Notes under the pieces: generated by a model
The model's database searches: none
Seen by the model: the letters and a program-made list of their open reading frames with translations, nothing else
Told to the model about the DNA's origin: nothing
Position numbers and translations under genes: made by a program
From: an uncultured Candidatus Saccharibacteria bacterium
GTDB taxonomy: Bacteria; Patescibacteriota; WWE3; 2-01-FULL-39-13
Reading direction: 5' to 3'
NCBI GenBank assembly: GCA_965230915.1
Contig: OZ246395.1
Span: 204,019 to 268,018, forward strand
DNA length: 64,000 nucleotides
Shown: in pieces, positions 10,352 through 58,160 of the stretch
Layout: each line of letters starts with the position of its first letter
Numbering within the stretch: position 1 is the first letter of the stretch

Positions 10352-10370
10352 AAATGTACCTATGGTATTA

Positions 10371-10577
10371 ATGGTCTCGTGAGACGGCCCATTACAATGG
10401 GTTTTTCGTGAGCCTTTTAATGCTATATAGCATTAAGTTCGTAGCACATTTCGCACATTAGTTTTTAAATGTTTGATTGCAAAGAATAAAAGGTGTCAGA
10501 CCATATCGACCTGACGCAAATCTTGATGGTCTCGTTAATACGATCCATGGGCGGGGAGTTTTTAGCGGGCCTTTTAA
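10371..10577 (+). promoter_or_regulatory. Leader between giant gene 1 and giant gene 2. Two ~50-nt related modules (10371-10420 and 10526-10577) each begin ATGGTCTCGT, carry a CCATT/CCATGGG core, and end GTTTTT-NNNN-(A/G)GCCTTTTAA. A perfect 20-bp palindrome TTAATGCTATATAGCATTAA lies at 10417-10436.
   Basis: Direct inspection: imperfect direct repeat 155 nt apart, internal palindromes (GTCTCgtGAGAC; CCCATTacAATGGG), and a perfect 20-bp inverted repeat. Confidence 0.4.
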
Positions 10578-10632
10578 GGTTAAAATCTTATTCTTTAAAA
10601 TATTCCTCTCTAAATTTTGCTATTATTTAAGG

Positions 10633-15816: not shown

Positions 15817-15890
15817 TTTTAAAAAAGTATTTAATAAAAATGTTAAACTTTAATTTATAAAGATTTGCAGAAATATCAACAAAAAATCGC

Positions 15891-30809: not shown

Positions 30810-31673
30810 ATGAAATGGCAGAAAGCAGACCTTACTACACAGTTCAAAATGATCGATGGAATGAATATAGATCCACCTCTAGAAAAGCTTTATTTTTCAG
30901 GTGAAATACCCGATTTAGATAACGCTATCGCAGTTGTTGGGTCTCGTAAGGTCTCAGATTACGGCAAAAGAGTGTGTCGCGAATTTGTTTCGGTTATGGC
31001 AAAAGCTGGGCTTACTATAATTAGTGGATTAATGTATGGAATCGATATCGAAGCTCATAATGCGGCCATTGATGCCGGAGGGAAGACTGTCGGAGTTTTG
31101 GGCTATGGCCACGATTATTTACGTAATTATGGTTATGCCCAAAATCTATATGAAAAGATTCTAGCTACAAAATCAGGTGCAGTGATTTCAGAATATGAGC
31201 CAAGCGAGCCTGCTGCTAAATGGACATTTCCAAAAAGGAACCGCATTATTTCTGCTTTATCTAAAGCAGTTTTAGTAATAGAAGGTGGAGAAAACTCAGG
31301 TAGCTTGATAACAGCTGGATATGCAGTAGAGCAGGGTAAAGAGGTTTTTGCAGTTCCCGGCTCTATATATAATGTGAATTCGAAGGGAACAAATTGGCTT
31401 ATAAAGCAGGGAGCCCACATGGCGACTTCACCTGAAGATATATTATTATTCTTTGGAAAACCTTTGCCTAATAAAATAGACAAAACAAAATTAAGTGAAA
31501 CAGAGCAGCAGATTTTACAAATTATAGAATCGCTAGATCAAAATACTACGGCATCAAAAATAGCCGATATTTCAGGACTTTCAGTAGGAGATTTAAACGC
31601 AAAGTTGTCAAAACTGGAACTTATGGGGTATATTGCCCGAGGTAATTTTGGAAAATTTACGATTTTAAAGTGA
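30810..31673 (+). CDS. dprA: DNA processing protein DprA (Smf), competence/recombination mediator.
   Basis: 'AVVGSRKVSDYGKRV...GLMYGIDIEAHNAAIDAGGKTVGVLGYGHD' Rossmann-like DprA core, and a C-terminal winged-helix-like region. Confidence 0.85.
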   Translation: MKWQKADLTTQFKMIDGMNIDPPLEKLYFSGEIPDLDNAIAVVGSRKVSDYGKRVCREFVSVMAKAGLTIISGLMYGIDIEAHNAAIDAGGKTVGVLGYGHDYLRNYGYAQNLYEKILATKSGAVISEYEPSEPAAKWTFPKRNRIISALSKAVLVIEGGENSGSLITAGYAVEQGKEVFAVPGSIYNVNSKGTNWLIKQGAHMATSPEDILLFFGKPLPNKIDKTKLSETEQQILQIIESLDQNTTASKIADISGLSVGDLNAKLSKLELMGYIARGNFGKFTILK

Positions 31674-31719
31674 ATGCCAAATCAAAAATTTTCCTGTACA
31701 GTTATCTAATAATAAAGAT

Positions 31720-34074
31720 ATGAAAAACATTGTAGTTGTTGAATCTCCATCAAAAACAAAGAAATTAGCTTCATTTTTAGGCAAAGATTATGAAGTTTTA
31801 TCGTCGGTTGGGCATATACGTGACCTGCCAAAATCAGGTCTTGGTGTCGATGTAGAAAATAATTTCGAGCCAGAGTACGTATTGTCTCCTGATAAAAAAG
31901 ACGTAATTAACGGGCTTAAACGGTCGGCAAAAGATGCTGACGCTATTTACTTGGCAACGGATCTTGACCGCGAAGGCGAAGCTATTGCCTGGCATGTGGC
32001 TTATTTAATGAATAACGAGAAAGATTTGACCAATGCCGAAGATAAGGACGCGAACTATCAGATAGCTCAAAAGGTAAAAAATAAAAATGGCCAAAACCCT
32101 AAGGTATATCGAGTAACTTTTAACTCCATCACAAAAGAAGCTGTGCTAGATGGGTTTAAGGCTCCTCGCAAACTGGATTTAAACTTAATCGATGCACAAC
32201 AGGGACGAAGAATATTAGATAGATTAGTAGGCTATAAGCTGTCCCCACTGTTATGGGAAAAAATCCGCTATGGATTATCGGCAGGTCGAGTACAATCTGT
32301 TGCCGTGCGTCTAATTGTAGAAAGAGAGCGCGAAATAAAGGAATTTAATAAACTTCCATATTATGAGATTTTTGCCGATTTTATAAAAGGCAAAGATAAG
32401 CTAATCACAAAACTAGTAAAAATCGATGGTCAATCAATTTACGAGAAGAAAAAATTCAAACTTTTTGCTTCCGAATATATAGCTTCAAAAACAATATTAG
32501 ATAATGAAACTGACGTAAAGAAAGCATTAGAGAATATTAAAAAAGATGAGTTTGCCGTAACTCAAGTTGAATCAAAAGATCTAAAAAGTCACCCAAGTCC
32601 ACCGTTTGCTACAGCAACGCTTCAGCAAGCAGCCAGTTCAAATTTAGGTTATTCGCCAGCTAGAACAATGCAACTTGCACAAAAATTATATGAAGGCGGA
32701 TTCATAACTTACATGCGTACCGATAGCATTAATTTAAACGCAGATACCATAAAAGACATTAGAAAATTTATAAAGGGAGCTTACGGCGACAATTATATGC
32801 TCGCGCATGAACGTCATTTTAAGGCTAAAAAAGATGCAAGAACTCAGGAAGCTCACGAAGGTATTAGGCCAACCGATGTAGCAGTTCGCGCAGAGGAATT
32901 ACCAAAATCGGTGAATCCGCAACAAAGAAAGTTATATGAGCTTATTTGGCGCAGAACAATAGCCTCACAAATGGCTCCAGCAGTTTTTGGTAACACAAAG
33001 GCAGCTATTGAAAATACAAAAGGTGAAAGCAAATATACATTCGAAGCTCGAGGCTCAATAATAAAATTCGATGGATACCTAAAAGTTTACTCGAACAAAC
33101 GAAAAGATGAGATTTTGCCGGAAATTAAGGAAGGGGACTCAGTTAAATTAGAAGACGTTCATGAAGAAGCGAAAGAAATGTCTGCTCCACCAAGGTATAA
33201 CGAGTCATCGCTCGTAAAAGAGCTCGAAAGCTTTAATATTGGACGTCCGTCTACATATGCGTCGATTATTTCGACGATTCAGACACGTGGTTATGTTAAA
33301 AAGATCGATAAGTCATTATCTCCAACTGACAATGGATATGTTGTAAACGATCTTTTGGTTCAGCATTTTCCACAGATTGTAGATGTCGACTTTACTGCTG
33401 AAATGGAAGAAGGCCTAGACGAAGTGGCCGAAGGTGATTTAGATTGGCGCAAATTATTAGGGGAATTTTATAAACCGTTCGAAAAACTTGTTGCTGCAAA
33501 GCGCAAAGAAATCAAAAAAGAAGATGTTGTTATTATGGAAAAAACCGATGAGGGTTGTCCAGAATGTGGTAAAGGCCATTTAATTGTAAAGCTGGGTAAA
33601 TTCGGCAAATTCTTAAGCTGTGATCAGTATCCGGAATGTAAATACGCAAGACCTATTGAAACCGAAGAAACTGCTGCAATGCAAAATGAAAATGAAGAGG
33701 CTGGGGTAAGCGAAGAAATTCCAGATTTAAATGAAAAATGCCCTGAATGCGGAGGCCAACTGACAATTAAAGAAGGTCGTTTCGGCAAATTTATCGCCTG
33801 CGAAAACTATCCCAAGTGTAAATTTACAAAAGCTATCTTAAAGAAGGTCGGAATTAAATGTCCCAAATGCGGCGAAGAACACGGTGGGGAAGTTGTAATG
33901 AAACGAACACAGCGTCAAAAAATATTCTTTGGATGTTCAAGATATCCTGCTTGCGATTATGCAAGTTGGACAAAGCCAGTTGTCGGAGAAGATGGAAAGG
34001 TAATTGATGAGCCGGCCAAAAAGGCAAAGAAATCGGCTAAAAAGGTTGCTAAAAAAGCAAAAAGTAAAAAATAA
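31720..34074 (+). CDS. topA: DNA topoisomerase I with C-terminal zinc-ribbon (C4) repeats and a Lys-rich tail.
   Basis: TOPRIM 'VVVESPSKTKKLASFLGKDYEVLSSVGHIRDLPKS'; 'DLDREGEAIAWH'; active-site region 'ITYMRTDS'; three CPxCG...C zinc ribbons. Confidence 0.95.
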   Translation: MKNIVVVESPSKTKKLASFLGKDYEVLSSVGHIRDLPKSGLGVDVENNFEPEYVLSPDKKDVINGLKRSAKDADAIYLATDLDREGEAIAWHVAYLMNNEKDLTNAEDKDANYQIAQKVKNKNGQNPKVYRVTFNSITKEAVLDGFKAPRKLDLNLIDAQQGRRILDRLVGYKLSPLLWEKIRYGLSAGRVQSVAVRLIVEREREIKEFNKLPYYEIFADFIKGKDKLITKLVKIDGQSIYEKKKFKLFASEYIASKTILDNETDVKKALENIKKDEFAVTQVESKDLKSHPSPPFATATLQQAASSNLGYSPARTMQLAQKLYEGGFITYMRTDSINLNADTIKDIRKFIKGAYGDNYMLAHERHFKAKKDARTQEAHEGIRPTDVAVRAEELPKSVNPQQRKLYELIWRRTIASQMAPAVFGNTKAAIENTKGESKYTFEARGSIIKFDGYLKVYSNKRKDEILPEIKEGDSVKLEDVHEEAKEMSAPPRYNESSLVKELESFNIGRPSTYASIISTIQTRGYVKKIDKSLSPTDNGYVVNDLLVQHFPQIVDVDFTAEMEEGLDEVAEGDLDWRKLLGEFYKPFEKLVAAKRKEIKKEDVVIMEKTDEGCPECGKGHLIVKLGKFGKFLSCDQYPECKYARPIETEETAAMQNENEEAGVSEEIPDLNEKCPECGGQLTIKEGRFGKFIACENYPKCKFTKAILKKVGIKCPKCGEEHGGEVVMKRTQRQKIFFGCSRYPACDYASWTKPVVGEDGKVIDEPAKKAKKSAKKVAKKAKSKK

Positions 34075-39176: not shown

Positions 39177-39668
39177 ATGGCTACAAGATCATTAAACCTA
39201 GTTTTTTTAATTGGAAATCTTACAAGAGATCCTGAACTTAGATACACATCAACAGGAACTGCTGTTGCAACATTTACAGTCGCAACAAACAGAAATTATG
39301 TAGATTCAACAGGAAAAGCTGTCGAATCAGCAGAATTTACTAATGTCGTAGCTTGGGCAAAACTTGCAGAAATTTGTGGACAACTTTTAAAGAAAGGAAT
39401 GAAGGTTCATATCCAAGGAAGACTTCAAACCTCAAAATGGCAAGACAAGGAATCAGGTAAAGAAATGAGAAAAACCGAGGTTGTAGCTACAGATATGATG
39501 ATTCTGTCTCCAGTAGCAGGTGGAAACGGCGGAATGTCTGAATCAGATTCAGAAGGCGGTTCAGCACCAGCTTCAAACTCAGGAGACATGGGAGAAAACG
39601 TAGATTTTAGTGCATTCGAAGAAATGGGCGATGCCCAGAATCCAGATGATTCAGGAACTCCATTCTAA
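39177..39668 (+). CDS. ssb: Single-stranded DNA-binding protein.
   Basis: OB-fold 'LNLVFLIGNLTRDPELRYTSTGTAVATFTVATNR...', a Gly/Ser-rich linker, and the acidic C-terminal tip 'DDSGTPF'. Strong SD AAAAGGAG. Confidence 0.9.
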   Translation: MATRSLNLVFLIGNLTRDPELRYTSTGTAVATFTVATNRNYVDSTGKAVESAEFTNVVAWAKLAEICGQLLKKGMKVHIQGRLQTSKWQDKESGKEMRKTEVVATDMMILSPVAGGNGGMSESDSEGGSAPASNSGDMGENVDFSAFEEMGDAQNPDDSGTPF

Positions 39669-50001: not shown

Positions 50002-52206
50002 TTATGCATAAACTCGGGCAAGTTTTTTCTTTCGATAAATTCTGCTCGCACCGATTAATGCTAATAAAACGGCTGAAGAAATTGGAGCGCCATAATTTAT
50101 CATGTCCTTAATGTTTTGTTCTACTGAAATAAATTGCGATCCTAACAAGTTTTTGGTCTTAATTTGTGAAAGACCTTCAACTTTTCCCATATTTTCTAAA
50201 AGTGCCAATGCAAGTACGGCGTTTTCCTGAATAGGTTGAGTAAATTGGTCTTCAAAAATTCTGCTTGATCCTGCGATTACCAATGTTCCGCCATTGTCAG
50301 TTTTTCTGTAGGCAACAAGTGGGTGTCTCATTAAGTTATCATTTGAATGCTGAGCTTGTGGGTCGATGTTAACAGTGCCATCCTCTTCTCCTCCGGAATT
50401 GGAAGTTGCATATAACCACTTCCAGTTCGGATCTAGCGTCAATGTTGATGCCCATGGCATAAGAATTTTTTGTGGTAAGAATTGAATTTCTGCGGATCCC
50501 GAATCATCTTTAGGTGTCACTACAAAGAATGGATACTTGGCACTCAATGTTTGGCTAACAGGAATTTCTAAACTATTTTGTAAATCATAGGCCATGTCGT
50601 TATCGACTTTCGCTCCATATTGACTCAGAACTTGCCCCGTATTTGCAATATCGCTAACAAGTCCGGTTGTTTCGTCTATTTGTTTTGTGTCGGCTAGATA
50701 TAAAACATTTCCGCCGGCATTTATATAATCTGCTATATATTTCATCGATTCATCGTTATATGAATTTTTAGGACCGGCAATAATAATTAAGTTGTAATCG
50801 CTAAGTTTTGGATCGACTAAGGGAGTTTTTTCTTCTGTATTTGACGGTCTTAATGCCACAGATTTTATATCGTATTCAGCTTGTAAAACCTGTTGTAGTA
50901 GGCCATACTCTTGAAATATTCCTTTTTCGCCATTGCCGGTTATAAAAGCAACTTTTGGCTTTTCGGTTTGCTTGATTTTATTGATAATAGAAGTGATTTG
51001 ATATTCCATATCATCGACACTATTTATGTAGTCGATTTTTTCTTTCTTTGATTCATCTTCATTCATAACCGCCAGTGCTAAATATCCTTGTTGAATTTGA
51101 AGTTGGTCTTCTCCGACAGTGTTAAATTGGACAGGTTGAATTTCTAAAGAGCTTAGTCTTTCGCCATTTGTATTTGGGTCTAAATATCTAACTTCTAAAT
51201 TATTGCCGGCAGAAGCTTTGTAGTCTGCCAAAATATTTTTGATTTCTTCAAAAGCGGCTTTATACATCGGAGGCAGATTATTTGTTGCGTAAACTTCGAT
51301 GATAATCTTTCCATCTTTATGTAAAACCTGTTCGGTAATATTTGAAAGTGTATATCGTTTGCTTGATGTTAAATCAATTCTTCCGAGCTGCTGACCAAAA
51401 TAGTTTGATAGATAGGCGAGGGCTACTCCGACAAATGCTATAGAAATTATTATTGTTAAGGTCTTTCTATATAGTTCGGTTGTATTAGAAATACGTATTT
51501 TTTCTAGGTTTGTATATGCGATTGCTACCGCGGTAACAATAAAAATCACAAAGTATATAAGGTTATTAAGACTTATAACCCCACGAACTAATGGGTTAAA
51601 GTTGTCGATAATACTAAATTGGGCAAGGGCATTAACAAGACCTGTCGGCAAATTAATAGCAGTAATATCGGTATTTATTATTAAAAGTATTAGAGTTAAA
51701 ACCGCTGAGGTTATAAAAGCTGCTATCTGGTTTTTATAAAAGCTCGATACTGCAACTCCTAAGCTGGATAAAGCTAGTGTTAATAAAAATGCTCCCAAAT
51801 ATTGTGAGAAAGTTTCTCCAATATCTATCGGGGCGATTCTACTTATAAGAATAGGTAAGGGGATCGTTAACAAAATTGCGATAAACACAATTTTGGTTGC
51901 ACCTAGGATTTTCCCTAATACTAGTTCTATTTGCTTTATTGGTTTAGTTTCTAGGTATTCAACGGTTTGTCTTTCAAATTCACTTGCAAATGATCCCATT
52001 GTTACAGCCGGTATTAAAACCGCTAAAAACCAAGGCATTATTTGGAACATACTTCTCATTGAAACAACTCCACTTATGAAAAATGTCTTTAAGAAGAAGA
52101 AATAAAGAAGTCCTAAAAATAACACTATTAATATATACCCACCTAAGTGGTCGAACTGCGCCTTTAGCTCTTTTATAGTAATTTCCTTTATGCTGTTAAT
52201 TCTCAT
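50002..52206 (-). CDS. ABC-2-type permease fused to a GldG-like large extracytoplasmic domain (GldF+GldG-like architecture), with a C-terminal TM anchor.
   Basis: N-terminal 6-TM ABC-2 permease region, then a ~450-aa hydrophilic domain, ending in the TM 'AVLLALIGASRIYRKKK'. Overlaps and is co-directional with the upstream ABC ATPase. Confidence 0.65.
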   Translation of the reverse strand: MRINSIKEITIKELKAQFDHLGGYILIVLFLGLLYFFFLKTFFISGVVSMRSMFQIMPWFLAVLIPAVTMGSFASEFERQTVEYLETKPIKQIELVLGKILGATKIVFIAILLTIPLPILISRIAPIDIGETFSQYLGAFLLTLALSSLGVAVSSFYKNQIAAFITSAVLTLILLIINTDITAINLPTGLVNALAQFSIIDNFNPLVRGVISLNNLIYFVIFIVTAVAIAYTNLEKIRISNTTELYRKTLTIIISIAFVGVALAYLSNYFGQQLGRIDLTSSKRYTLSNITEQVLHKDGKIIIEVYATNNLPPMYKAAFEEIKNILADYKASAGNNLEVRYLDPNTNGERLSSLEIQPVQFNTVGEDQLQIQQGYLALAVMNEDESKKEKIDYINSVDDMEYQITSIINKIKQTEKPKVAFITGNGEKGIFQEYGLLQQVLQAEYDIKSVALRPSNTEEKTPLVDPKLSDYNLIIIAGPKNSYNDESMKYIADYINAGGNVLYLADTKQIDETTGLVSDIANTGQVLSQYGAKVDNDMAYDLQNSLEIPVSQTLSAKYPFFVVTPKDDSGSAEIQFLPQKILMPWASTLTLDPNWKWLYATSNSGGEEDGTVNIDPQAQHSNDNLMRHPLVAYRKTDNGGTLVIAGSSRIFEDQFTQPIQENAVLALALLENMGKVEGLSQIKTKNLLGSQFISVEQNIKDMINYGAPISSAVLLALIGASRIYRKKKLARVYA

Positions 52207-52894
52207 GTGACTTTAATTCTTTAAATATTTTTTCGAGGTTCATTTTCTTTGGAGAACCCTGTGTAACTAATTGACCATTATTTATTACGATAACCTTGTT
52301 GCACATTGCGTCTACTTCTTGCATAACGTGAGTACTAATTAAAATAACTTTATCTTTAGACATTTCAATAATTAATTTTCTGATATCTTCACGCTGGTTG
52401 GGGTCTAAACCTTCAGTAGGTTCGTCTAAAATTAAAAGTTTAGGGTCGTGAATCATTGCTGCTGCAAGTCCGACTCTTTGTTTATAACCTTTGGATAACT
52501 CGGCAATAGGTGATAGCAAACGATTGGTGATACCGACTTCTTTTGCTATTTTTTTAATTCTCTCTTCTATATTTTTGTTATCAACACCTTGCAATTTTGC
52601 TGACATTGTTAAGAAATCTACAACAAGCATATCTAAATATAATGGATTATTTTCGGGTAAATATCCGATTAAAGATTGTGTCTCTAAAGTGTCGAGTTGA
52701 GTATCTTTATCTTCTATTGTAATTTCGCCTTCAGATGGAAAATAATAAGAGGTGATCATACGCATGGTTGTAGTTTTACCGGCTCCATTTGGTCCAAGTA
52801 AACCCGCGATGTCTCCTTTTTCTAATTCGAAAGAAAGATCCTTAACGGCTTCGACTCCGCCAAAATTTTTTGATACATTTTTGACCTTCAACAT
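52196..52894 (-). CDS. ABC transporter ATP-binding protein (GldA/ABC-2 exporter type).
   Basis: Walker A 'GLLGPNGAGKTTTMRMI', signature 'LSKGYKQRVGLAAAM', Walker B 'LLILDEPTEGLD', H-loop 'ILISTHVM'. Confidence 0.9.
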   Translation of the reverse strand: MLKVKNVSKNFGGVEAVKDLSFELEKGDIAGLLGPNGAGKTTTMRMITSYYFPSEGEITIEDKDTQLDTLETQSLIGYLPENNPLYLDMLVVDFLTMSAKLQGVDNKNIEERIKKIAKEVGITNRLLSPIAELSKGYKQRVGLAAAMIHDPKLLILDEPTEGLDPNQREDIRKLIIEMSKDKVILISTHVMQEVDAMCNKVIVINNGQLVTQGSPKKMNLEKIFKELKSHEN

Positions 52895-52928
52895 AATATA
52901 GTGGATTTATATCTTGCATTATAGACCA

Positions 52929-53273
52929 ATGTCAAGAAAATCGCTTGAGCTTGGAGTTTTCTTATTATGGGGTATAATATGGTATATGACTGTAAATTGG
53001 GGGGTCACTGAACAAGTTAATAATGAGACGCAAAATCCAGAAAATGGCTTGAATACTGAAGTTTCTCAGACTTCGGTAAGCGGATATGTGCCAGCCCCAA
53101 GACCTGTTATTGCAACTGTGCCTGATGAAAGAACCGTACCAAGCACAACAGAAATAGTGCAAGATATAACACCTAAAACTCCTATTGTAAGGACATCCGA
53201 AAACGTACACAGAGCTGCCTTATGGGCGGTTACACAATCTAATGCTCAAGCACAGAAACCCGAAGGTTTTTAA
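52929..53273 (+). CDS. Small membrane-anchored protein (about 114 aa from ATG 52929; the track's start at 52914 is a TTG).
   Basis: N-terminal TM 'LELGVFLLWGIIWYMTV' followed by a Pro/Thr-rich extracellular tail. Confidence 0.4.
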   Translation: MSRKSLELGVFLLWGIIWYMTVNWGVTEQVNNETQNPENGLNTEVSQTSVSGYVPAPRPVIATVPDERTVPSTTEIVQDITPKTPIVRTSENVHRAALWAVTQSNAQAQKPEGF

Positions 53274-53301: not shown

Positions 53302-55716
53302 ATGCCCGAACAAGTTGTAAATCCCGAAACCTTTTTTACTCAATCACTTCATCTTTTTCAAACTGTTTTAATATTTTCAGTCATCCTATTAGTCTTAATG
53401 GTTGTTATATATTATGGATTTAAAGCATATATTTGGCATGTTCGTTTTAAGAATCGAAAAAAATCTTTAGACGAAAAAGTTTTTCTAAAGATACAGATTC
53501 CCGAAGAAAATGAAATTGAGCCATCTATGTCGGAGCAGATGTATAGCAGCATGTACGGCATTCGCAAAAGCGGTTTTATGGAATCACTAAAGGAACACGA
53601 CCATATTTCATTTGAAATTGTCGCTAATAATGAATCAATCGATTTTTATGCGGTTTGTCCGAAAAATCTTGAGAATTTGGTTGAGAAACAAATTAATGCG
53701 GCTTATCCAGATGCAGAAATTACGAAAGTCGATCCATGGAGTTTATGGACTAACGATGGAACGGTTGAATTTTCAAGTTTGGTTTTGCGAAAACCAGATT
53801 ATTTTCCAATAAATACTTACGAAGAAATGAAGGTGGATTCGATCGCAGTTATAACTGCTGCAATGGGCAAGTTGCACGAAGGGGAAGGTCTGGCAATTCA
53901 AATGGTAATTAGGCCTGCCGAAGATATATGGCAAAAGAATGGAAAAGCCCATATTAAAAAATATTTTTCAGATAAAAATGGAAAAGATGGATCGAAAATG
54001 TCGAAAATAGACGAAGATTATATTCAAACGATTCAAAGCAAAATTTCCAAAATTGGATTTGAAACAGTTATTCGTTTGGTATCAGTTTCTAATGACGAAG
54101 CTTCGGCTAAGGCTAATTTAAGCAACTTAGAGCGAGCTTTTGGCCAATTTAACAGCCCCGTTTTTAATTCTCTTAAAAAAGCTCCTCAGCGATACGAAAA
54201 GTATTTTGTAATTTCATTTATCGCGAGAATGTTCCCGGTTGTTGAAAAGTTTGAGCTTCCATTTGAAATTCCATTTTTATTGAAAAAAGAATGGTTTAGA
54301 GGTTGGAGTATTTATAACACCGAAGAGCTTGCGACACTTTGGCATCTTCCAAATAAAAATGTAAAAACACCTCGAATTAATTGGTTGCGATCAAAAGGTT
54401 CAGCCGCGCCAATTGAATTGCCTGATTCGGGACTTTACCTTGGTAAATCAATATTTAGAGGAACCGAAGTGCCAATTTTTATGCAAGACGAAGATCGCCG
54501 TCGCCATATGTATATTTTAGGAACTACAGGTACAGGAAAATCGGAATTTATGAAATTTATGGCGATTCAGGATATTAAAGAAGGCAAGGGAGTTGCTTTT
54601 ATTGATCCACATGGATCAGCAGTTAATGATATTGTGCAGCAAATTCCACCAGAAAGAATTGATGATGTGATTTATTTTGACCCAAGCACCGAAAGACCGA
54701 TGGGGCTAAATATATTGGATGTAAAAACAGAAAAAGAAAAAGACATGGTTATCAATAAGTTTATTGAGATGTTGTACGAATTGTACGACCCAAATAAACA
54801 GGGTATTATGGGGCCTCAGCTCGAGCGTGCACTTCGTATGTGTATGTTGACCATTATGAGTAAACCCGGAGGTTCGTTAATCGAAGTCGTTCGTTTATTG
54901 GTCGACGAAAACTTTCACAAAGAGTACATGCCTTATATTAAAGACGATACAGTTCGTTTATATTGGACTGCTGAAGTTGCAAACACCACAAAAAATCGTA
55001 AAGGCGAAACCATGGGCTATTTTGTTTCAAAGCTCGACCGTTTTACAACCGAAAAAACCATGCGTTATATGTTGGGCCAGTCATATTCGTCCTTTGACTT
55101 TAACGATGTAATGAATAATCGCAAAATTTTATTAGCTGATTTATCAAAAGGTAAATTGGGTGCAGAAAATTCTAAATTTTTGGGATTAATGTTAGTTCCT
55201 CGTTTACTAGCCGCTGCATTTTCACGAATCGAAAAAATGGAGCGCGGAGAACATATAGAAGATTTTTACTTATATATTGATGAGTTCCAGAACTACACCA
55301 CTCCGGACATCGAAACAATTTTGTCTGAAGCGCGTAAATATCGCTTAAATTTAATTGTCGCAAATCAATTTATTGGACAACTGCCAGAAAAAATTAAAGA
55401 CGCCATATTTGGAAATGTCGGAAGCATGACTGTATTTCGCGTAGGTACAGATGATGCGCAATATTTAGAAAAGTATTTTGCTCCAACTTTTGGGCAAACA
55501 GATTTAATGAACAATAGAGTAGGGCGGGCTTACATGAAGTTGCTTGTTAACAACCAGCCATCGCCAGCTTTTGCGATGACCACCGATTGGGACATGATTT
55601 CCAGTATGCCGCGTGATTTTGCTTTAGGCCAGCAAATTAAAGAGCTAAGCCAGCAAAAATATGGAAGAAACCGCTTTATCGTCGAACAAGAGATAAAAGC
55701 TAGAGGTGGGATGTAG
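53302..55716 (+). CDS. Type-IV coupling protein-like P-loop ATPase (TraD/TraG/VirD4 family with a TraG-D_C-like C-terminus) and an N-terminal TM anchor.
   Basis: TM 'VLIFSVILLVLMVVIYYGF'. Walker A context 'RRHMYILGTTGTGKSEFMKFMAIQDIKEGKGVAFIDPHGSA' (T4CP-like 'GxTGSGKS...DPKGE'). Walker B 'LYIDEFQNY' followed by 'ARKYRLNLIVANQFIGQL...IFGNVGSMTVFRVGTDDAQYLEKYF' (TraG-D_C-like). Confidence 0.65.
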   Translation: MPEQVVNPETFFTQSLHLFQTVLIFSVILLVLMVVIYYGFKAYIWHVRFKNRKKSLDEKVFLKIQIPEENEIEPSMSEQMYSSMYGIRKSGFMESLKEHDHISFEIVANNESIDFYAVCPKNLENLVEKQINAAYPDAEITKVDPWSLWTNDGTVEFSSLVLRKPDYFPINTYEEMKVDSIAVITAAMGKLHEGEGLAIQMVIRPAEDIWQKNGKAHIKKYFSDKNGKDGSKMSKIDEDYIQTIQSKISKIGFETVIRLVSVSNDEASAKANLSNLERAFGQFNSPVFNSLKKAPQRYEKYFVISFIARMFPVVEKFELPFEIPFLLKKEWFRGWSIYNTEELATLWHLPNKNVKTPRINWLRSKGSAAPIELPDSGLYLGKSIFRGTEVPIFMQDEDRRRHMYILGTTGTGKSEFMKFMAIQDIKEGKGVAFIDPHGSAVNDIVQQIPPERIDDVIYFDPSTERPMGLNILDVKTEKEKDMVINKFIEMLYELYDPNKQGIMGPQLERALRMCMLTIMSKPGGSLIEVVRLLVDENFHKEYMPYIKDDTVRLYWTAEVANTTKNRKGETMGYFVSKLDRFTTEKTMRYMLGQSYSSFDFNDVMNNRKILLADLSKGKLGAENSKFLGLMLVPRLLAAAFSRIEKMERGEHIEDFYLYIDEFQNYTTPDIETILSEARKYRLNLIVANQFIGQLPEKIKDAIFGNVGSMTVFRVGTDDAQYLEKYFAPTFGQTDLMNNRVGRAYMKLLVNNQPSPAFAMTTDWDMISSMPRDFALGQQIKELSQQKYGRNRFIVEQEIKARGGM

Positions 55717-56283: not shown

Positions 56284-56856
56284 ATGTTTGCAAAGTTGAA
56301 GGCAAAATCAGATTGGTTATTAGACCGAGTTCATGGTTTTTACTTTCCCTATGGAAGCGATTTCACTGATTGGCCGCGTTTGATTTTATCGGCTCTGGCC
56401 GTCTTGTTTGTCGCAGGCGTGCTTCTTCTGTGGGCAGTTTACAATATTGCCCTTATAAATCACGAAAACGCGGTTTACCCTGACCTCAGCGATGTTGTTG
56501 GATTTAAGCTCGAGGTATTTCGCACTGATGGAAGCAGCGCGGTAGTTACCGGGCCACACTCGACAACAGTCATTGTGCCGTGGAATTACACTGGCAGCAT
56601 TGAGGCTTTGCTTGAAAATGGCGCAGAATTCGTTGGTAGTTCGCCATCGGGGCAGCTTTATAAGTTTGGGCCAGAGGTTACACCAAAGGTTCAGATAGGG
56701 GATCATGTCACATTCATTTTCCCGGTGCCCGCTGATGCGGATGCAATTCAGTTGATCGTAGATCCGGAAACAGGCAGTTGGGACGGCAGCCCGTCGTCTT
56801 ACTATTTCTGCAAGCTATCCGAATTTTGCTTATATCCTCCGGGATTTGGCAAGTAA
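56284..56856 (+). CDS. Small membrane-anchored/secreted protein, paralog family member 1 (190 aa), with the C-terminal motif YYFC-x6-C.
   Basis: SD GAAGGAGAG upstream. TM 'LILSALAVLFVAGVLLLWAVYNIAL'. C-terminus '...SYYFCKLSEFCLYPPGFGK'. GC about 48%. Confidence 0.5.
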   Translation: MFAKLKAKSDWLLDRVHGFYFPYGSDFTDWPRLILSALAVLFVAGVLLLWAVYNIALINHENAVYPDLSDVVGFKLEVFRTDGSSAVVTGPHSTTVIVPWNYTGSIEALLENGAEFVGSSPSGQLYKFGPEVTPKVQIGDHVTFIFPVPADADAIQLIVDPETGSWDGSPSSYYFCKLSEFCLYPPGFGK

Positions 56857-56906: not shown

Positions 56907-57440
56907 ATGAAGAAGCTACTTATTCCGGGTTTGCTGGTTTTGATTTTTGCTCTCCTGTGGAGCGGGTTTGACCAAAACAGTATCACTGCCTCCTGGTTCC
57001 AGCGCGGCGAACCCGTGCCCGAGCAGGAGAGCTTGGAATCGCGCATTGCGATGGCCGAATCGCGCCTCGAGTACCTTGAGCAACAGGAAGCTCTTCGTAT
57101 CGAAAACGATCAGTTTATGTTCGTTTCAGATGCCGATGAGTTTTTGGCGCGCACCGGTCTTCTCTTCGAACAAGAGCCAGTCGCTGTAGACATGATGCGA
57201 ATCATTGATAGCAGCGGCAAAGAATCGGGAAGCGGTGCGACCTACAAGTTCTCAGAGTCGCCGGTATTGGTCGATGACAGTGGAAACAGATTTCCGCTCG
57301 ATATTCACAAGGGTGAAACGGCCCATTTGTTGGCGTATACTGAAGGCAATGTGACTCAACTCGCATACTATGCGTGCTATACAAACAGCGCCATGTGTTA
57401 TGTCGAGACCAAAGTTCTGCCGATAGCGATGAGCTATTAG
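56907..57440 (+). CDS. Small secreted protein, paralog family member 2 (177 aa from ATG 56907; the track ORF starts upstream at 56778 and overlaps the previous gene).
   Basis: SD AAAGG 8 nt upstream. Signal/TM 'MKKLLIPGLLVLIFALLWSG'. C-terminal 'GNRFPLDIHKGE...GNVTQLAYYACYTNSAMCYVE' aligns with member 3. Confidence 0.5.
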   Translation: MKKLLIPGLLVLIFALLWSGFDQNSITASWFQRGEPVPEQESLESRIAMAESRLEYLEQQEALRIENDQFMFVSDADEFLARTGLLFEQEPVAVDMMRIIDSSGKESGSGATYKFSESPVLVDDSGNRFPLDIHKGETAHLLAYTEGNVTQLAYYACYTNSAMCYVETKVLPIAMSY

Positions 57441-57668: not shown

Positions 57669-58160
57669 ATGCGCAGAAAGAAATTAATTTTCGCACTGGC
57701 AATTAGCATCGCAGTAAATGCTTGTCTGGGGTTCCAATATTTCAACCATATATCTAGGATAAGCGAACTTACTGCCGCAACTAATAGTCTTACCAAGAAG
57801 GTTCTGGAGGCGAGTCAGCCGCCAGAATATTATCTTTTAGACAGTAGTGGGCTGATCGACACTGTCATTCAGTTGAACGGCGTGGGTCTGGGTATGTTTG
57901 GTCCAAACCGAATTTATCTCATGGATGATCCACCTACTGCTACGTTTTTGTCAGATGGAGAAACTTTTCCCTTTGATATTTCAGATGGAAATTTCATCAA
58001 CATCGTCCCCGTTTTTGGGCCAGACGGAAATGTTTTGCATCCGGCCTATTATGTATGCGATCGGATGAATTTCGAGACATGTACCTTCAACCCAGACAAG
58101 CTGAGGTTTTTGAGGCCCATCGACGGGATGCCGACGGCAACAAGACAATCAGGTGCGTAG
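57669..58160 (+). CDS. Small secreted protein, paralog family member 3 (163 aa).
   Basis: Signal peptide 'MRRKKLIFALAISIAVNACLG'. 'GETFPFDISDGN...GNVLHPAYYVCDRMNFETCTF' shares 'FP.DI..G...GNV...AYY.C......C' with member 2. Confidence 0.55.
   Translation: MRRKKLIFALAISIAVNACLGFQYFNHISRISELTAATNSLTKKVLEASQPPEYYLLDSSGLIDTVIQLNGVGLGMFGPNRIYLMDDPPTATFLSDGETFPFDISDGNFINIVPVFGPDGNVLHPAYYVCDRMNFETCTFNPDKLRFLRPIDGMPTATRQSGA

What the first reader, a model, noticed from the sequence alone, without database searches (positions are those of the whole stretch)
53302..55716. Orphan TraD/VirD4-like type-IV coupling ATPase with no other T4SS genes nearby
An 804-aa protein has an N-terminal TM anchor, a T4CP-like Walker A region (ILGTTGTGKS...FIDPHGSA), Walker B 'IDEFQN' and a TraG-D_C-like tail. 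It is flanked by an ABC exporter and small secreted proteins, with no VirB4/B6/B8/relaxase in the window. It may act in DNA uptake together with DprA/Ssb, in protein secretion, or be the remnant of an integrated element.
Basis: partly seen in the sequence, partly recalled or inferred. Interest (0 to 1): 0.6.

Follow-up and report, generated by a model that had tools for sequence, protein, structure and literature searches.

The report
Patescibacteria core VirD4-like membrane ATPase
The gene is real, but it is not a stray leftover of a mobile element: it belongs to a membrane ATPase family carried by Patescibacteria of many lineages, always away from the type IV secretion genes, and its counterpart in the one genetically tractable species is essential for growth on the host, although nobody has shown what it does.

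Summary
The 804-aa ORF at 53302-55716(+) is real and intact. It has one N-terminal TM helix, Walker A GTTGTGKS and Walker B YIDEFQN. No other T4SS gene lies in the 64 kb window.

The ATPase half is clearly T4CP/VirD4-type: hhalign gives 99.7% to a genuine Bacillus conjugative T4CP and 94.8% to TrwB, and it does not reach the thresholds of the HerA, FtsK or VirB4 models.

"Orphan" is the norm here. The gene belongs to a very large family found in many Patescibacteria lineages, more than 4,500 clusters at 90% identity. Family members have 36-53% identity across classes, sit in housekeeping contexts and show no GC anomaly. A 2025 survey already reported that T4CP homologues in this phylum almost never lie near virB4.

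What I add:
- The N-terminal 320 aa is Pfam DUF8128. Its predicted fold matches only the VirB4/TrwK N-domain (structure only, no sequence signal).
- A small co-oriented ORF abuts the ATPase in 75 of 77 loci.
- The Saccharimonadia members are syntenic with S. epibionticum SEML1_0141/0142, which Tn-seq scored essential but no paper discusses.
- The same two-domain protein occurs in Firmicutes phages and haloarchaeal plasmids.

Most likely role: a coupling or energising ATPase acting in trans with the chromosomal T4SS. A T4SS-independent translocase is not excluded.

The parts
52929..53273 (+). Small upstream ORF in the partner position (114 aa from ATG 52929; the ORF opens at TTG 52914). It has an N-terminal hydrophobic stretch, then a polar, Pro/Thr/Gln-rich low-complexity region. 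Its stop is 29 nt before the ATPase start.
   Evidence: The exact 114-aa sequence is in the protein collection from the 945-kb NCBI contig and from Logan contigs. A same-strand ORF of at least 50 aa ends at the ATPase start in 75 of 77 loci (median gap 7 nt, median length 141 aa). A C-terminal motif HMM hits 29 ORFs out of about 3,745, all directly upstream of or fused to the ATPase. The window's copy lacks that motif and is not detectably similar even to the ORFs of relatives whose ATPases are 75-77% identical. Its role as a partner is therefore inferred from position only.
53302..55716 (+). The whole ATPase gene, 804 aa: TM anchor, DUF8128 domain and T4CP-type motor.
53347..53436 (+). Single N-terminal transmembrane helix (about residues 16-45), followed by the basic stretch RFKNRKK, which puts the rest of the protein in the cytoplasm.
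   Evidence: Sequence; AF2 helix 8-56. Topology is inferred from the positive-inside rule.
53470..54417 (+). DUF8128 domain (Pfam PF26449; residues about 57-372): an alpha/beta domain whose predicted fold resembles the N-terminal domain of VirB4/TrwK.
   Evidence: Precomputed PF26449 hit on the identical protein. Domain-only AF2 model: pLDDT 89, pTM 0.88. Foldseek against the PDB: the top 14 hits are all TrwK/VirB4 chains (E 7.5e-7 to 1.8e-4, TM 0.40-0.48), and the next hits are unrelated folds. There is no sequence-profile signal to the VirB4 NTD (hhalign 0.2%).
54433..55581 (+). T4CP/VirD4-type P-loop motor domain (residues about 378-760).
   Evidence: hhalign 99.7% to a Bacillus plasmid T4CP, 94.8% to TrwB and 86% to a VirB4-CTD profile. 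A PDB profile search finds TrwB and DotL at E 4-5e-5. Foldseek to TrwB: rmsd 5 A, TM 0.61 normalised by the target.
54520..54543 (+). Walker A motif, GTTGTGKS (residues 407-414).
   Evidence: G407, T409, G410, G412 and K413 are invariant in 37 sequences.
54730..55116 (+). All-alpha insertion (residues about 477-605, eight helices) between Walker A and Walker B, in the position of the all-alpha domain of TrwB.
   Evidence: AF2 secondary structure. It is included in the end-to-end alignments with T4CP-type proteins.
55264..55293 (+). Walker B region, FYLYIDEFQN (residues 655-664). It is followed by the conserved ARKY.LNL..ANQ...QL segment.
   Evidence: D660, E661, F662, Q663, N664, R678, K679, Q689 and Q693 are invariant.
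55588..55713 (+). C-terminal helical tail (residues about 763-804). In Saccharimonadia relatives it is extended by 150-250 low-complexity residues.
52870..52897 (+). Promoter-like site (TTGATA-16-CATAAT) upstream of the partner ORF. This is compatible with a two-gene operon but is weak evidence.
   Evidence: The number of such sites in the region is not above the shuffled expectation.

Best explanation
The gene encodes a vertically inherited Patescibacteria protein found across many classes of the phylum. It is an NTPase anchored in the cytoplasmic membrane by one N-terminal helix. Its C-terminal half is a VirD4/T4CP-type motor, made of a RecA-like P-loop core with an all-alpha insert. Its cytoplasmic N-terminal half is Pfam DUF8128, whose predicted fold resembles the VirB4 N-domain that docks VirB4 onto the inner-membrane platform of a T4SS. 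In most lineages the gene is co-transcribed with a small, fast-evolving, largely disordered protein.

Most likely mechanism: by analogy with TrwB and VirB4 the protein forms a ring at the membrane. It hydrolyses NTP to recruit or push a macromolecular substrate. It acts in trans as the coupling or second energising ATPase of the chromosomal Patescibacteria-type T4SS, which is encoded elsewhere in the genome and has no recognisable coupling protein in its own locus.

Shown here: gene integrity, domain architecture, T4CP-type motor, phylum-wide conservation, conservation of a small upstream ORF, synteny of the Saccharimonadia members with an essential S. epibionticum gene pair.

Inferred: oligomeric state, topology, cooperation with the T4SS, nature of the substrate.
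For: Identity of the motor: (T4CP-type, stronger than VirB4, HerA or FtsK).

Extra domain. Full-length Foldseek ranks full-length TrwK/VirB4 first (E 4e-16, about 890 aligned columns).

Conserved, vertically inherited gene. More than 4,547 clusters at E<1e-5, with 47-53% identity to WWE3, CPR3, Woyke- and Gottesmanbacteria. At least 595 loci in GTDB species representatives, covering Microgenomatia, WWE3, Dojkabacteria and Saccharimonadia plus one record labelled Paceibacterota. DUF8128 alone finds 1,894 clusters at 50% identity, and in the proteins of about 700 aa or more it lies near the N-terminus. Contexts are housekeeping and GC is unremarkable.

Upstream ORF.

Link to an essential gene. 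Saccharimonadia relatives L078 and L081 carry DUF8128. They match SEML1_0140-0145 gene for gene, including gyrB. In the Tn-seq of Wang et al. 2023 (PMC10633639, Table S1), SEML1_0142 is called ES/ES/ES: 114 insertions in the input fall to 11, 11 and 9. SEML1_0141 keeps 0 insertions after selection.

Link to the T4SS. The Se T4SS (SEML1_0006-0019) is essential and was described as lacking a recognisable coupling protein. In phage G a VirB4-CTD-like gene lies directly upstream of the DUF8128 homologue. On a Pontibacillus plasmid a DUF8128 protein lies about 7 kb from a VirB4/pilin conjugation cluster.
Against: No T4SS gene is adjacent in the window. None recurs in the four gene tables I read or among the neighbour families shared by the roughly 80 loci.

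Homologues exist in phages D6E and Staley. In the stretches I read, about 16 kb of the 49-kb D6E genome and about 14 kb of Staley, no T4SS gene is annotated. So the module may be able to work without a T4SS.

The survey found T4CP hits in more genomes (2,918) than VirB4 (2,417), although its T4CP count mixes two profiles.

Orthology to SEML1_0142 rests on synteny, shared DUF8128 and 36-39% identity. I could not obtain the sequence of the second, non-essential Se paralogue SEML1_0293, whose Pfam hit pattern resembles the window protein's. I therefore cannot exclude that it is equally close or closer.

The VirB4-NTD resemblance is based on predicted structure only (hhalign 0.2%).

The protein fails every curated full-length T4CP model threshold.
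Confidence: 0.5

Rival explanations
1. It is a T4SS-independent membrane translocase. The DUF8128 ATPase, perhaps with its small upstream protein, works on its own as an FtsK-like pump for DNA or another polymer. Possible roles are chromosome or replicon segregation, or recombinase-coupled DNA handling. Its essentiality in S. epibionticum would then reflect a housekeeping role rather than secretion.
For: Phages D6E and Staley encode full-length DUF8128 plus T4CP-type homologues, and no T4SS gene is annotated in the stretches I read. In both phages a tyrosine integrase lies convergent immediately downstream. A Xer-like tyrosine recombinase occupies the same position in 28 of 82 Patescibacteria loci, and an FtsB-like gene lies nearby in 20. 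In D6E a gene annotated as a partition protein lies upstream, with about 1 kb of unannotated sequence in between. No T4SS gene recurs near the family. T4CP hits occur in more genomes than VirB4.
Against: At least one relative's contig also encodes a canonical FtsK with 4TM, alpha, motor and gamma domains (locus L002). The recombinase adjacency is restricted to some lineages and absent from the window, so it may be inherited synteny. A position next to the integrase in temperate phages is also typical of accessory genes. The motor is closer to conjugative T4CPs than to FtsK (PF01580 E 0.035; hhalign). Phage G pairs the homologue with a VirB4-like ATPase.
Confidence: 0.3
2. It is a DNA-uptake motor that works with the competence machinery (ComEC, type IV pili, DprA, Ssb). 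This is one of the first reader's suggestions.
For: dprA and ssb are present in the window. The archaeal DNA-import ATPases CedB and CedD give weak Walker-A-region hits. A ComEC/Rec2 gene lies about 5 kb from the haloarchaeal homologue.
Against: dprA and ssb are 14-22 kb away, and dprA sits directly upstream of topA. Neither gene appears in the four gene tables I read. In S. epibionticum a comEC deletion abolishes transformation but not viability, whereas SEML1_0142 is essential, so the essential role is not transformation (PMC12857230). The Ced hits cover only about 60 residues around the P-loop and score far below the cut-offs.
Confidence: 0.07
3. It is a decaying remnant of an integrated conjugative element or prophage: an orphan T4CP left behind after the other transfer genes were lost.
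For: No relaxase or mating-pair genes are nearby. The closest relatives outside Patescibacteria are on plasmids and phages. A tRNA-Ser gene lies 2.6 kb downstream.
Against: The ORF is full length and every catalytic residue is invariant. There are thousands of orthologues at 36-53% identity across classes, and their motor and DUF8128 domains occupy the same positions. Neighbours are housekeeping genes, there is no integrase or repeat boundary, and GC is 0.35-0.38, like its surroundings. Its Saccharimonadia counterpart is essential.
Confidence: 0.02
4. It is a divergent full-length VirB4 paralogue rather than a T4CP, so that both halves descend from VirB4.
For: Full-length Foldseek ranks TrwK/VirB4 first, and the N-domain alone hits only TrwK. 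The size (804 aa) and the two-domain layout match VirB4. A small gene lies upstream, as virB3 does before virB4.
Against: Sequence profiles place the motor with T4CPs: 99.7% and 94.8% against 11% and 3.5% to single VirB4 sequences, and 86% to a VirB4-CTD profile. AAA_10 scores E 0.077, and no PF03135 or PF19044 hit was seen. TIGR00929 scores 28.6 bits against a cut-off of 643. There is no sequence signal between DUF8128 and the VirB4 NTD. The upstream proteins are mostly not TM proteins, unlike VirB3.
Confidence: 0.08

Closest known systems
Conjugative type IV coupling proteins (TrwB of R388, VirD4, TraD, TraG; and the pLS20-like T4CP of Bacillus plasmids)
   Same: Membrane-anchored P-loop motor with the same Walker A, Walker B and ARK..Q..QL motifs, and an all-alpha insert in the same position. 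hhalign gives 99.7% to the Bacillus plasmid T4CP and 94.8% to TrwB. Foldseek to TrwB gives rmsd 5 A.
   Different: It has one TM helix instead of two. It carries an extra 320-aa DUF8128 domain between the anchor and the motor. No relaxase or mating-pair genes are nearby. It is chromosomal and vertically inherited, has a small co-oriented ORF upstream, and scores far below all curated T4CP model cut-offs.
VirB4 (TrwK of R388; PDB 8rtd, 7o42, 7o43)
   Same: Overall two-domain layout and size. The predicted DUF8128 fold matches only the TrwK N-domain in the PDB (E 7.5e-7). The motor domains are distantly homologous (86%).
   Different: There is no detectable sequence similarity in the N-domain (0.2%). 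The motor is closer to T4CPs. It has its own TM helix rather than a VirB3 partner. It is not encoded in a T4SS cluster.
S. epibionticum ML1 SEML1_0141/SEML1_0142 (Wang et al. 2023 Tn-seq; annotated 'TraM recognition domain-containing protein')
   Same: Saccharimonadia members of the window's family share gene order with this locus: two small + strand genes, the ATPase, a 193-aa gene on the - strand, a roughly 550-aa gene on the - strand, then gyrB. They also carry DUF8128 and have the P-loop at about residues 381-800. Both Se genes are scored essential.
   Different: Identity to the window protein is 36-39%, and the Saccharimonadia proteins have a 150-250-aa C-terminal extension. Orthology is positional, because I could not compare with the second paralogue SEML1_0293, which is non-essential.
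Firmicutes phage proteins of phrog_5156 (Bacillus phage G gp156, Staley gp98, D6E ORF23)
   Same: Same DUF8128 plus T4CP-type motor architecture. phrog_5156 matches at E 4e-77. The NTD profile gives 96.7-99.1% and the motor profile 96.8-99.7%.
   Different: They have no N-terminal TM helix and only about 20-23% identity. They lie next to an integrase or, in phage G, a VirB4-like gene. Their function is unknown.
Haloarchaeal megaplasmid pairs (for example Natrinema pNATPE01 NATPE_RS19225 + RS19220)
   Same: A DUF8128-like protein lies immediately upstream of a 'TraM recognition domain' T4CP-type ATPase on the same strand.
   Different: The two domains are separate ORFs, the ATPase is about 994 aa, the element is a plasmid and the host is an archaeon.

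Membership tests
Type IV coupling protein (VirD4/TraD/TraG/TrwB) | VirD4-type P-loop nucleotide-binding domain with Walker A and B | tested here: met
   Motifs are present and invariant. Pfam TraG-D_C, TrwB_AAD_bind and DUF87 score above their gathering cut-offs. hhalign gives 99.7% to a genuine conjugative T4CP and 94.8% to TrwB. A PDB profile search finds TrwB and DotL.
Type IV coupling protein (VirD4/TraD/TraG/TrwB) | All-alpha domain inserted in the nucleotide-binding domain | tested here: met
   The AF2 model has eight helices at residues 477-605 between Walker A and B. This region is included in alignments to T4CP-type proteins and in the Foldseek match to TrwB. The evidence is predicted, not experimental.
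Type IV coupling protein (VirD4/TraD/TraG/TrwB) | N-terminal transmembrane anchor | tested here: met
   There is one hydrophobic helix at about residues 16-45. By my own recollection canonical T4CPs usually have two TM helices; this was not tested here.
Type IV coupling protein (VirD4/TraD/TraG/TrwB) | Score above the curated full-length family thresholds (NCBIfam TraD/VirD4 models) | tested here: not met
   The best model is conju_CD1115 at 45 bits against a cut-off of 250. SXT_TraD scores 42 against 366 and TOL_TraD 35 against 648. The same holds for all 37 relatives.
Type IV coupling protein (VirD4/TraD/TraG/TrwB) | Genetic linkage to a relaxase and/or mating-pair-formation genes | tested here: not met
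   None was found in the ORFs scanned across the 64-kb window. None recurs in the four gene tables read or among the neighbour families shared by about 80 related loci.
Type IV coupling protein (VirD4/TraD/TraG/TrwB) | Substrate or relaxosome recruitment to a T4SS channel | not testable with these tools
   This needs interaction or transfer assays.
VirB4 | VirB4-type motor (PF19044, AAA_10, TIGR00929) | tested here: not met
   TIGR00929 scores 28.6 bits against 643. AAA_10 scores E 0.077. hhalign to a VirB4-CTD profile gives 86%, weaker than to T4CPs.
VirB4 | VirB4 N-terminal domain (PF03135) | tested here: inconclusive
   Predicted structure: Foldseek hits only TrwK (E 7.5e-7, TM 0.48). Sequence: hhalign gives 0.2%, and no PF03135 hit appears in any listed relative.
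Pfam DUF8128 (PF26449) family | PF26449 domain following an N-terminal anchor, fused to a P-loop ATPase | tested here: met
   There is a precomputed PF26449 hit on the identical protein P0001 and on nearly all of the 240 listed relatives. The domain lies near the N-terminus in the hits of about 700 aa or more. The model is absent from my local Pfam copy, so I relied on the precomputed hits.
HerA / FtsK-SpoIIIE | Family-specific motor and accessory domains (HerA HAS-barrel; FtsK alpha, beta and gamma) | tested here: not met
   NCBIfam HerA scores 16.5 bits against 970, and PF01580 scores E 0.035, below its cut-off. The DUF87 hit covers only the Walker-A region (positions 3-62 of 220). A relative's contig encodes a separate canonical FtsK.
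SEML1_0142 orthologous group (essential in S. epibionticum) | Same orthologous lineage as SEML1_0142 rather than the paralogue SEML1_0293 | tested here: inconclusive
   Supported by synteny of the Saccharimonadia relatives with SEML1_0140-0145, by shared DUF8128 and by the upstream small ORF. The SEML1_0293 sequence was not obtainable, and its Pfam hit pattern does not discriminate.

The most novel reading that the evidence does not exclude
The DUF8128 ATPase and its small upstream protein are the 'missing' coupling or energising module of the essential, relaxase-less Patescibacteria T4SS. A T4CP-type motor has acquired a VirB4-N-domain-like docking module and its own membrane anchor. This lets it plug into the T4SS platform from a separate locus and drive the exchange of macromolecules with the host cell. 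That would explain why SEML1_0141/0142 are as essential as the T4SS genes themselves. The family, which is also found in Firmicutes phages and haloarchaeal plasmids, would then be an unrecognised architectural class between VirB4 and VirD4.
Probability: 0.3. Interest if true: 0.75.

Novelty: new variant of a known kind. Interest (0 to 1): 0.45.

Why it matters
Patescibacteria make up a large share of bacterial diversity. In the cultured examples examined here they live as obligate epibionts on host cells. Their chromosomal T4SS is, according to a 2025 review, the first T4SS shown to be essential for its bearer. What it transports and how it is energised or loaded are both unknown, because no relaxase or coupling protein is found in the locus.

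The published view is that the T4CP homologue of S. epibionticum is dispensable. That statement refers to SEML1_0293. The Tn-seq table shows that a second VirD4-like gene, SEML1_0142, and its small upstream neighbour are essential. The window's gene belongs to the same DUF8128 family and has the same layout.

This gives a concrete and testable candidate for the missing motor. It also gives a first structural hypothesis for a Pfam domain of unknown function present in about 1,900 protein clusters. The gene in this window is itself an ordinary member of that family. The value lies in the family-level reading, not in this locus.

Tried and rejected

(2) Sequence confirmation of DUF8128 = VirB4 NTD failed. 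The family profile gave no signal against single VirB4 sequences (0.2-0.5%) or against a 60-sequence TrwK-family profile (0.2%).

(3) I tried to establish whether the 2025 survey counted this family as T4CP. NCBI accessions of six family members were not found in the stored, truncated copy of its Table S3. The stored part only shows that genomes have one or two t4cp1 hits plus t4cp2 (FtsK-like) hits.

(4) I looked for a second VirD4/VirB4-like gene near the DUF8128 gene in all held loci, to obtain a paralogue for rooting. None was found. The SEML1_0293 sequence could not be retrieved with the tools.

(5) Exact look-ups of window proteins returned no organism names. The window's class within Patescibacteria is therefore unnamed. 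The nearest named relatives are WWE3/Katanobacteria, at up to 53% identity.

(6) The motif of the upstream proteins, (V/I)LP(I/L)T...G...S..WL.EW..R.IK, is real in 29 loci but absent from the window's clade. I do not claim homology for the window's upstream ORF.

(7) Defence-system affiliation. PADLOC gives only a moderate hit to mad8 (2e-15) and weak HerA hits. The context is not a defence island, so I rejected this reading.

(8) The promoter and terminator scan around the operon gave nothing above the shuffled expectation.

(9) A literature search for DUF8128 returned no paper.


Full report
OBSERVATION

The ORF at 53302-55716 (+) is real: ATG start, 804 aa. An identical protein is a called gene on a 945-kb NCBI contig, which points to a small Patescibacteria genome.
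- Walker A, GTTGTGKS, residues 407-414
- IDPHG, residues 434-438
- Walker B, YIDEFQN, residues 658-664

A single long hydrophobic helix at the N-terminus is followed by RFKNRKK. By the positive-inside rule this places the rest of the protein in the cytoplasm (topology is inferred). Pfam gives weak hits that are nevertheless above the gathering cut-offs: DUF87 (Walker-A region only), TraG-D_C (655-738) and TrwB_AAD_bind. All NCBIfam T4CP, VirB4, HerA and Ced models are hit far below their cut-offs.

I scanned most, not all, ORFs of at least 100 aa in the window. The rest of the window is ordinary chromosome:
- three giant FG-GAP or ConA-lectin surface proteins
- ribosomal proteins, NusG, RRF and a release factor
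- dprA-topA and ssb
- S41, HtrA and M50 proteases, and a ClpP-like gene
- MgsA
- four tRNAs

No VirB4, VirB6, VirB8 or relaxase was found. GC around the gene (0.35-0.38) matches its surroundings.

WHAT THE PROTEIN IS

A search of 5.8 billion proteins returned more than 4,547 clusters at E<1e-5. The top 120 all scored above 770 bits. Identity was 47-53% to proteins of WWE3, CPR3, Woykebacteria and Gottesmanbacteria.

These span Microgenomatia, WWE3, Dojkabacteria/WS6 and Saccharimonadia, plus one record labelled Paceibacterota. Some record titles, such as 'uncultured Gammaproteobacteria', appear to be placeholder labels.

The precomputed domain annotation shows that the N-terminal half is Pfam PF26449, DUF8128. 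No paper in the library mentions DUF8128. An exhaustive phmmer search with that domain alone finds 1,894 clusters at 50% identity at E<=1e-3, and 877 at E<=1e-10. In the hits of about 700 aa or more, the domain starts at about residue 30-115 of proteins of roughly 700-1,400 aa.

MOTOR DOMAIN

The family profile for residues 373-770 was compared with reference sequences and profiles:
- 99.7% probability (E 3.5e-27) over 375 columns to the coupling protein of a Bacillus plasmid conjugation operon. That gene sits with a relaxase and an AAA_10 VirB4.
- 94.8% to TrwB.
- 11% and 3.5% to two single VirB4 sequences.
- 86% to a VirB4-CTD profile.

All 37 relatives hit TraD/VirD4 NCBIfam models, and only 19 hit VirB4_CagE. 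TraG-D_C and DUF87 are hit by 37 of 37 relatives, and TrwB_AAD_bind by 30 of 37.

The AF2 model (pLDDT 85) shows an eight-helix insert at residues 477-605 between Walker A and B. This is where TrwB has its all-alpha domain. Foldseek superposes the motor on TrwB at rmsd 5 A.

So the motor is T4CP-type.

N-TERMINAL DOMAIN

Full-length Foldseek unexpectedly ranks full-length TrwK/VirB4 first (E 4e-16, about 890 aligned columns), ahead of HerA and TrwB.

I modelled residues 50-375 alone (pLDDT 89, pTM 0.88). Against the PDB, the top 14 hits are all TrwK chains (E 7.5e-7 to 1.8e-4, TM 0.40-0.48). The next hits are unrelated alpha/beta folds at E>1e-3.

I therefore report a VirB4-N-domain-like predicted fold, not demonstrated homology. 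From my own knowledge, canonical T4CPs have no such domain.

GENE CONTEXT

In four relatives with long contigs, the neighbours are housekeeping genes that differ between lineages.

In 75 of 77 loci a same-strand ORF of at least 50 aa ends at the ATPase start. The median gap is 7 nt and the median length 141 aa. These ORFs are polar and low in complexity, and they rarely have a TM-like segment.

An HMM of a C-terminal motif, (V/I)LP(I/L)T...G...S..WL.EW..R.IK, finds 29 ORFs among about 3,745:
- 24 end at the ATPase start.
- Two more abut ATPase genes that run off their contig.
- Two are fused in frame to the ATPase.
- One lies about 0.8 kb upstream.

Other clades have motifs of their own. The Saccharimonadia version is DLIEKEWV...DDPY...KADYLKKRY.

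The window's upstream ORF (52929-53273, 114 aa) is an independently called gene. It lacks the motif. It is not detectably similar even to the upstream ORFs of relatives whose ATPases are 75-77% identical. Its role as a partner is therefore positional only.

The ABC transporter next door recurs only in a close relative. The three downstream small secreted paralogues are not conserved neighbours.

LITERATURE

Quinonero-Coronel et al. 2025 (PMC12102498) reported the following:
- VirB4 in 2,417 of 3,035 Patescibacteria genomes.
- 5,713 T4CP homologues in 2,918 genomes, only 148 of them near virB4.
- Almost no relaxases.
- The possibility that the t4cp has been exapted, because the S. epibionticum homologue is not essential.

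Their T4CP hits mix the profiles t4cp1 (VirD4-like) and t4cp2 (TcpA/FtsK-like). The genomes in the stored part of their table show one or two t4cp1 hits each.

Wang et al. 2023 (PMC10633639) state that the essential Se T4SS (SEML1_0006-0019) lacks recognisable coupling and relaxase proteins.

Their Table S1 lists two VirD4-like genes:

| Gene | Size | Tn-seq call | Context |
|---|---|---|---|
| SEML1_0293 | 921 aa | NE/NE/NE | next to a sigma factor |
| SEML1_0142 | 1,019 aa | ES/ES/ES (114 input insertions fall to 11, 11, 9) | 12 nt downstream of SEML1_0141 |
| SEML1_0141 | 139 aa | GD/ES/ES (0 insertions after selection) | small hypothetical gene upstream of SEML1_0142 |

Neither SEML1_0141 nor SEML1_0142 is mentioned in the main text.

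The Saccharimonadia loci retrieved as relatives of the window protein (L078, L081; 36-39% identity over residues 22-801) carry DUF8128. They match SEML1_0140-0145 gene for gene: two small + strand genes, an ATPase of 933-1,027 aa, a 191-194-aa gene on the - strand, a 578-618-aa gene on the - strand, and then gyrB.

The family to which the window's gene belongs is therefore, by position, the essential SEML1_0142 type.

Caveat: I could not obtain SEML1_0293. Its Pfam hit set (PF10412, PF12696, PF01935) resembles that of the window protein. I cannot exclude that it is an equally close paralogue.

RELATIVES OUTSIDE THE PHYLUM

- PHROGs family phrog_5156 matches at E 4e-77 over residues 231-798.
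- Bacillus phage G gp156 aligns over residues 64-751. Phages Stahl, Staley and Stills and Geobacillus phage D6E align from about residue 95-102.
- The DUF8128 profile matches the N-terminal halves of these phage proteins at 96.7-99.1%, and the motor profile matches at 96.8-99.7%.
- The phage proteins lack the N-terminal TM anchor.
- In D6E and Staley a tyrosine integrase lies convergent directly downstream. A Xer-like recombinase occupies the same position in 28 of 82 Patescibacteria loci.
- In phage G the upstream gene gp155 is VirB4-CTD-like (92%).
- On haloarchaeal megaplasmids DUF8128 is a separate ORF immediately upstream of a T4CP-type ATPase.
- On a Pontibacillus plasmid a DUF8128 protein lies about 7 kb from a VirB4 (CD1110-type) and pilin cluster.
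- The motor alone is 29-30% identical (E 1e-42 to 1e-50) to uncharacterised 'DUF87' or 'T4SS DNA-binding' proteins of Rhodococcus, Streptomyces and Sulfitobacter replicons.

MECHANISM

Shown:
- The gene is intact, conserved and anchored by one TM helix.
- It has a T4CP-type motor and an additional DUF8128 domain.
- A small co-oriented ORF accompanies it in most lineages.
- It is inherited vertically and lies away from the T4SS genes.
- Its positional counterpart in S. epibionticum is essential.

Inferred:
- It forms a ring at the membrane, as its relatives TrwB and VirB4 do.
- The DUF8128 domain serves as a docking module. By my recollection of the R388 structures, the VirB4 N-domain contacts VirB3 and VirB8.
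- The protein acts in trans as the coupling or second energising ATPase of the chromosomal T4SS.
- The small disordered upstream protein serves as an adaptor, regulator or substrate.

I put this reading at about 0.5.

The main rival, at about 0.3, is a T4SS-independent translocase. It is supported by the phage homologues, for which no T4SS gene is annotated in the stretches I read, and by the recurrent recombinase neighbour.

DNA uptake with DprA/Ssb is unlikely (about 0.07). There is no linkage, and comEC is dispensable in Se whereas SEML1_0142 is not. A decayed mobile-element remnant is effectively excluded (about 0.02). A divergent full-length VirB4 paralogue is possible, but the sequence profiles disfavour it (about 0.08).

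VERDICT

The 'orphan' status is the documented norm in this phylum, and the gene is not an element remnant. The locus is an ordinary member of a large, named but uncharacterised family.

The added value is at the family level:
- an unrecognised architectural variant of T4CP, with a VirB4-like N-domain and a small upstream protein
- relatives in phages and archaeal plasmids
- an overlooked essentiality signal, which makes the missing motor of the essential Patescibacteria T4SS directly testable

Interest 0.45. Novelty: new variant of a known kind.

Noticed in passing
window 107-21113 (+): Three consecutive giant ORFs of 3,414, 1,779 and 1,740 aa. They carry FG-GAP repeats or six Laminin_G_3 (ConA-like lectin) domains plus DUF2341. 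They are probably surface adhesins of an epibiotic cell.
   Followed up: partly
window 56284-56856, about 56910-57440, and 57669-58160 (+): Three paralogous small proteins with a TM or signal anchor share a C-terminal 'AYY(A/V)C....C' motif. They have no Pfam match. They lie in a stretch with GC 0.44, against 0.35-0.38 around it. They are not conserved next to the ATPase in other lineages.
   Followed up: partly
window 30810-34074 (+) and 39177-39668 (+): dprA lies directly upstream of topA, and ssb lies about 5 kb further on. These genes are 14-22 kb from the ATPase and are not linked to it in the relatives' gene tables I read.
   Followed up: yes
window 50002-52894 (-): An ABC ATPase and a 733-aa fusion of an ABC-2 permease with ABC_transp_aux, DUF7088 and GIFT-like domains are transcribed divergently from the upstream ORF. 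The same neighbour is seen only in the close relative L005.
   Followed up: partly
loci L011-L062 (28 of 82); L090 (D6E) 9378-10820; L091 (Staley) 8248-9147: A tyrosine recombinase lies convergent immediately downstream of the DUF8128 ATPase. It is Xer-like in many Patescibacteria and an integrase in two Firmicutes phages. An FtsB-like gene is nearby in 20 Patescibacteria loci. This could hint at recombinase-coupled DNA handling, or it could be synteny and accessory-gene position only.
   Followed up: partly
L092 (Bacillus phage G) 3300-7442: gp155 is VirB4-CTD-like (hhalign 92%). It lies directly upstream of gp156, the DUF8128 plus T4CP-type homologue. This makes a VirB4/VirD4-like ATPase pair inside a jumbo phage.
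   Followed up: partly
L093 (Natrinema pNATPE01) 12903-17070; L094 (Pontibacillus plasmid) 11896-13167: DUF8128 occurs as a stand-alone ORF. In the haloarchaeon it lies directly upstream of a 994-aa T4CP-type ATPase. In Pontibacillus it lies about 7 kb from a VirB4 (CD1110-type) and pilin conjugation cluster.
   Followed up: partly
L012 233-2773 and L016 5521-8262: In two loci the motif of the upstream proteins lies in the same reading frame as the ATPase with no intervening stop. This suggests natural fusions of the small protein and the ATPase, or read-through gene calls.
   Followed up: no
S. epibionticum Tn-seq table (PMC10633639, Table S1): SEML1_0141 and SEML1_0142 are scored essential but are not discussed in the main text of that paper. 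The later survey cites only the non-essential paralogue SEML1_0293 as 'the' t4cp.
   Followed up: yes
window 53302-55716; PADLOC: The motor gives a moderate hit to mad8 of the methylation-associated defence system (E 2e-15, residues 399-715). The closest non-Patescibacteria motor, a Rhodococcus 738-aa DUF87 protein, sits among NYN and CHAT genes. Relatives of this motor may therefore also be used in defence islands.
   Followed up: no
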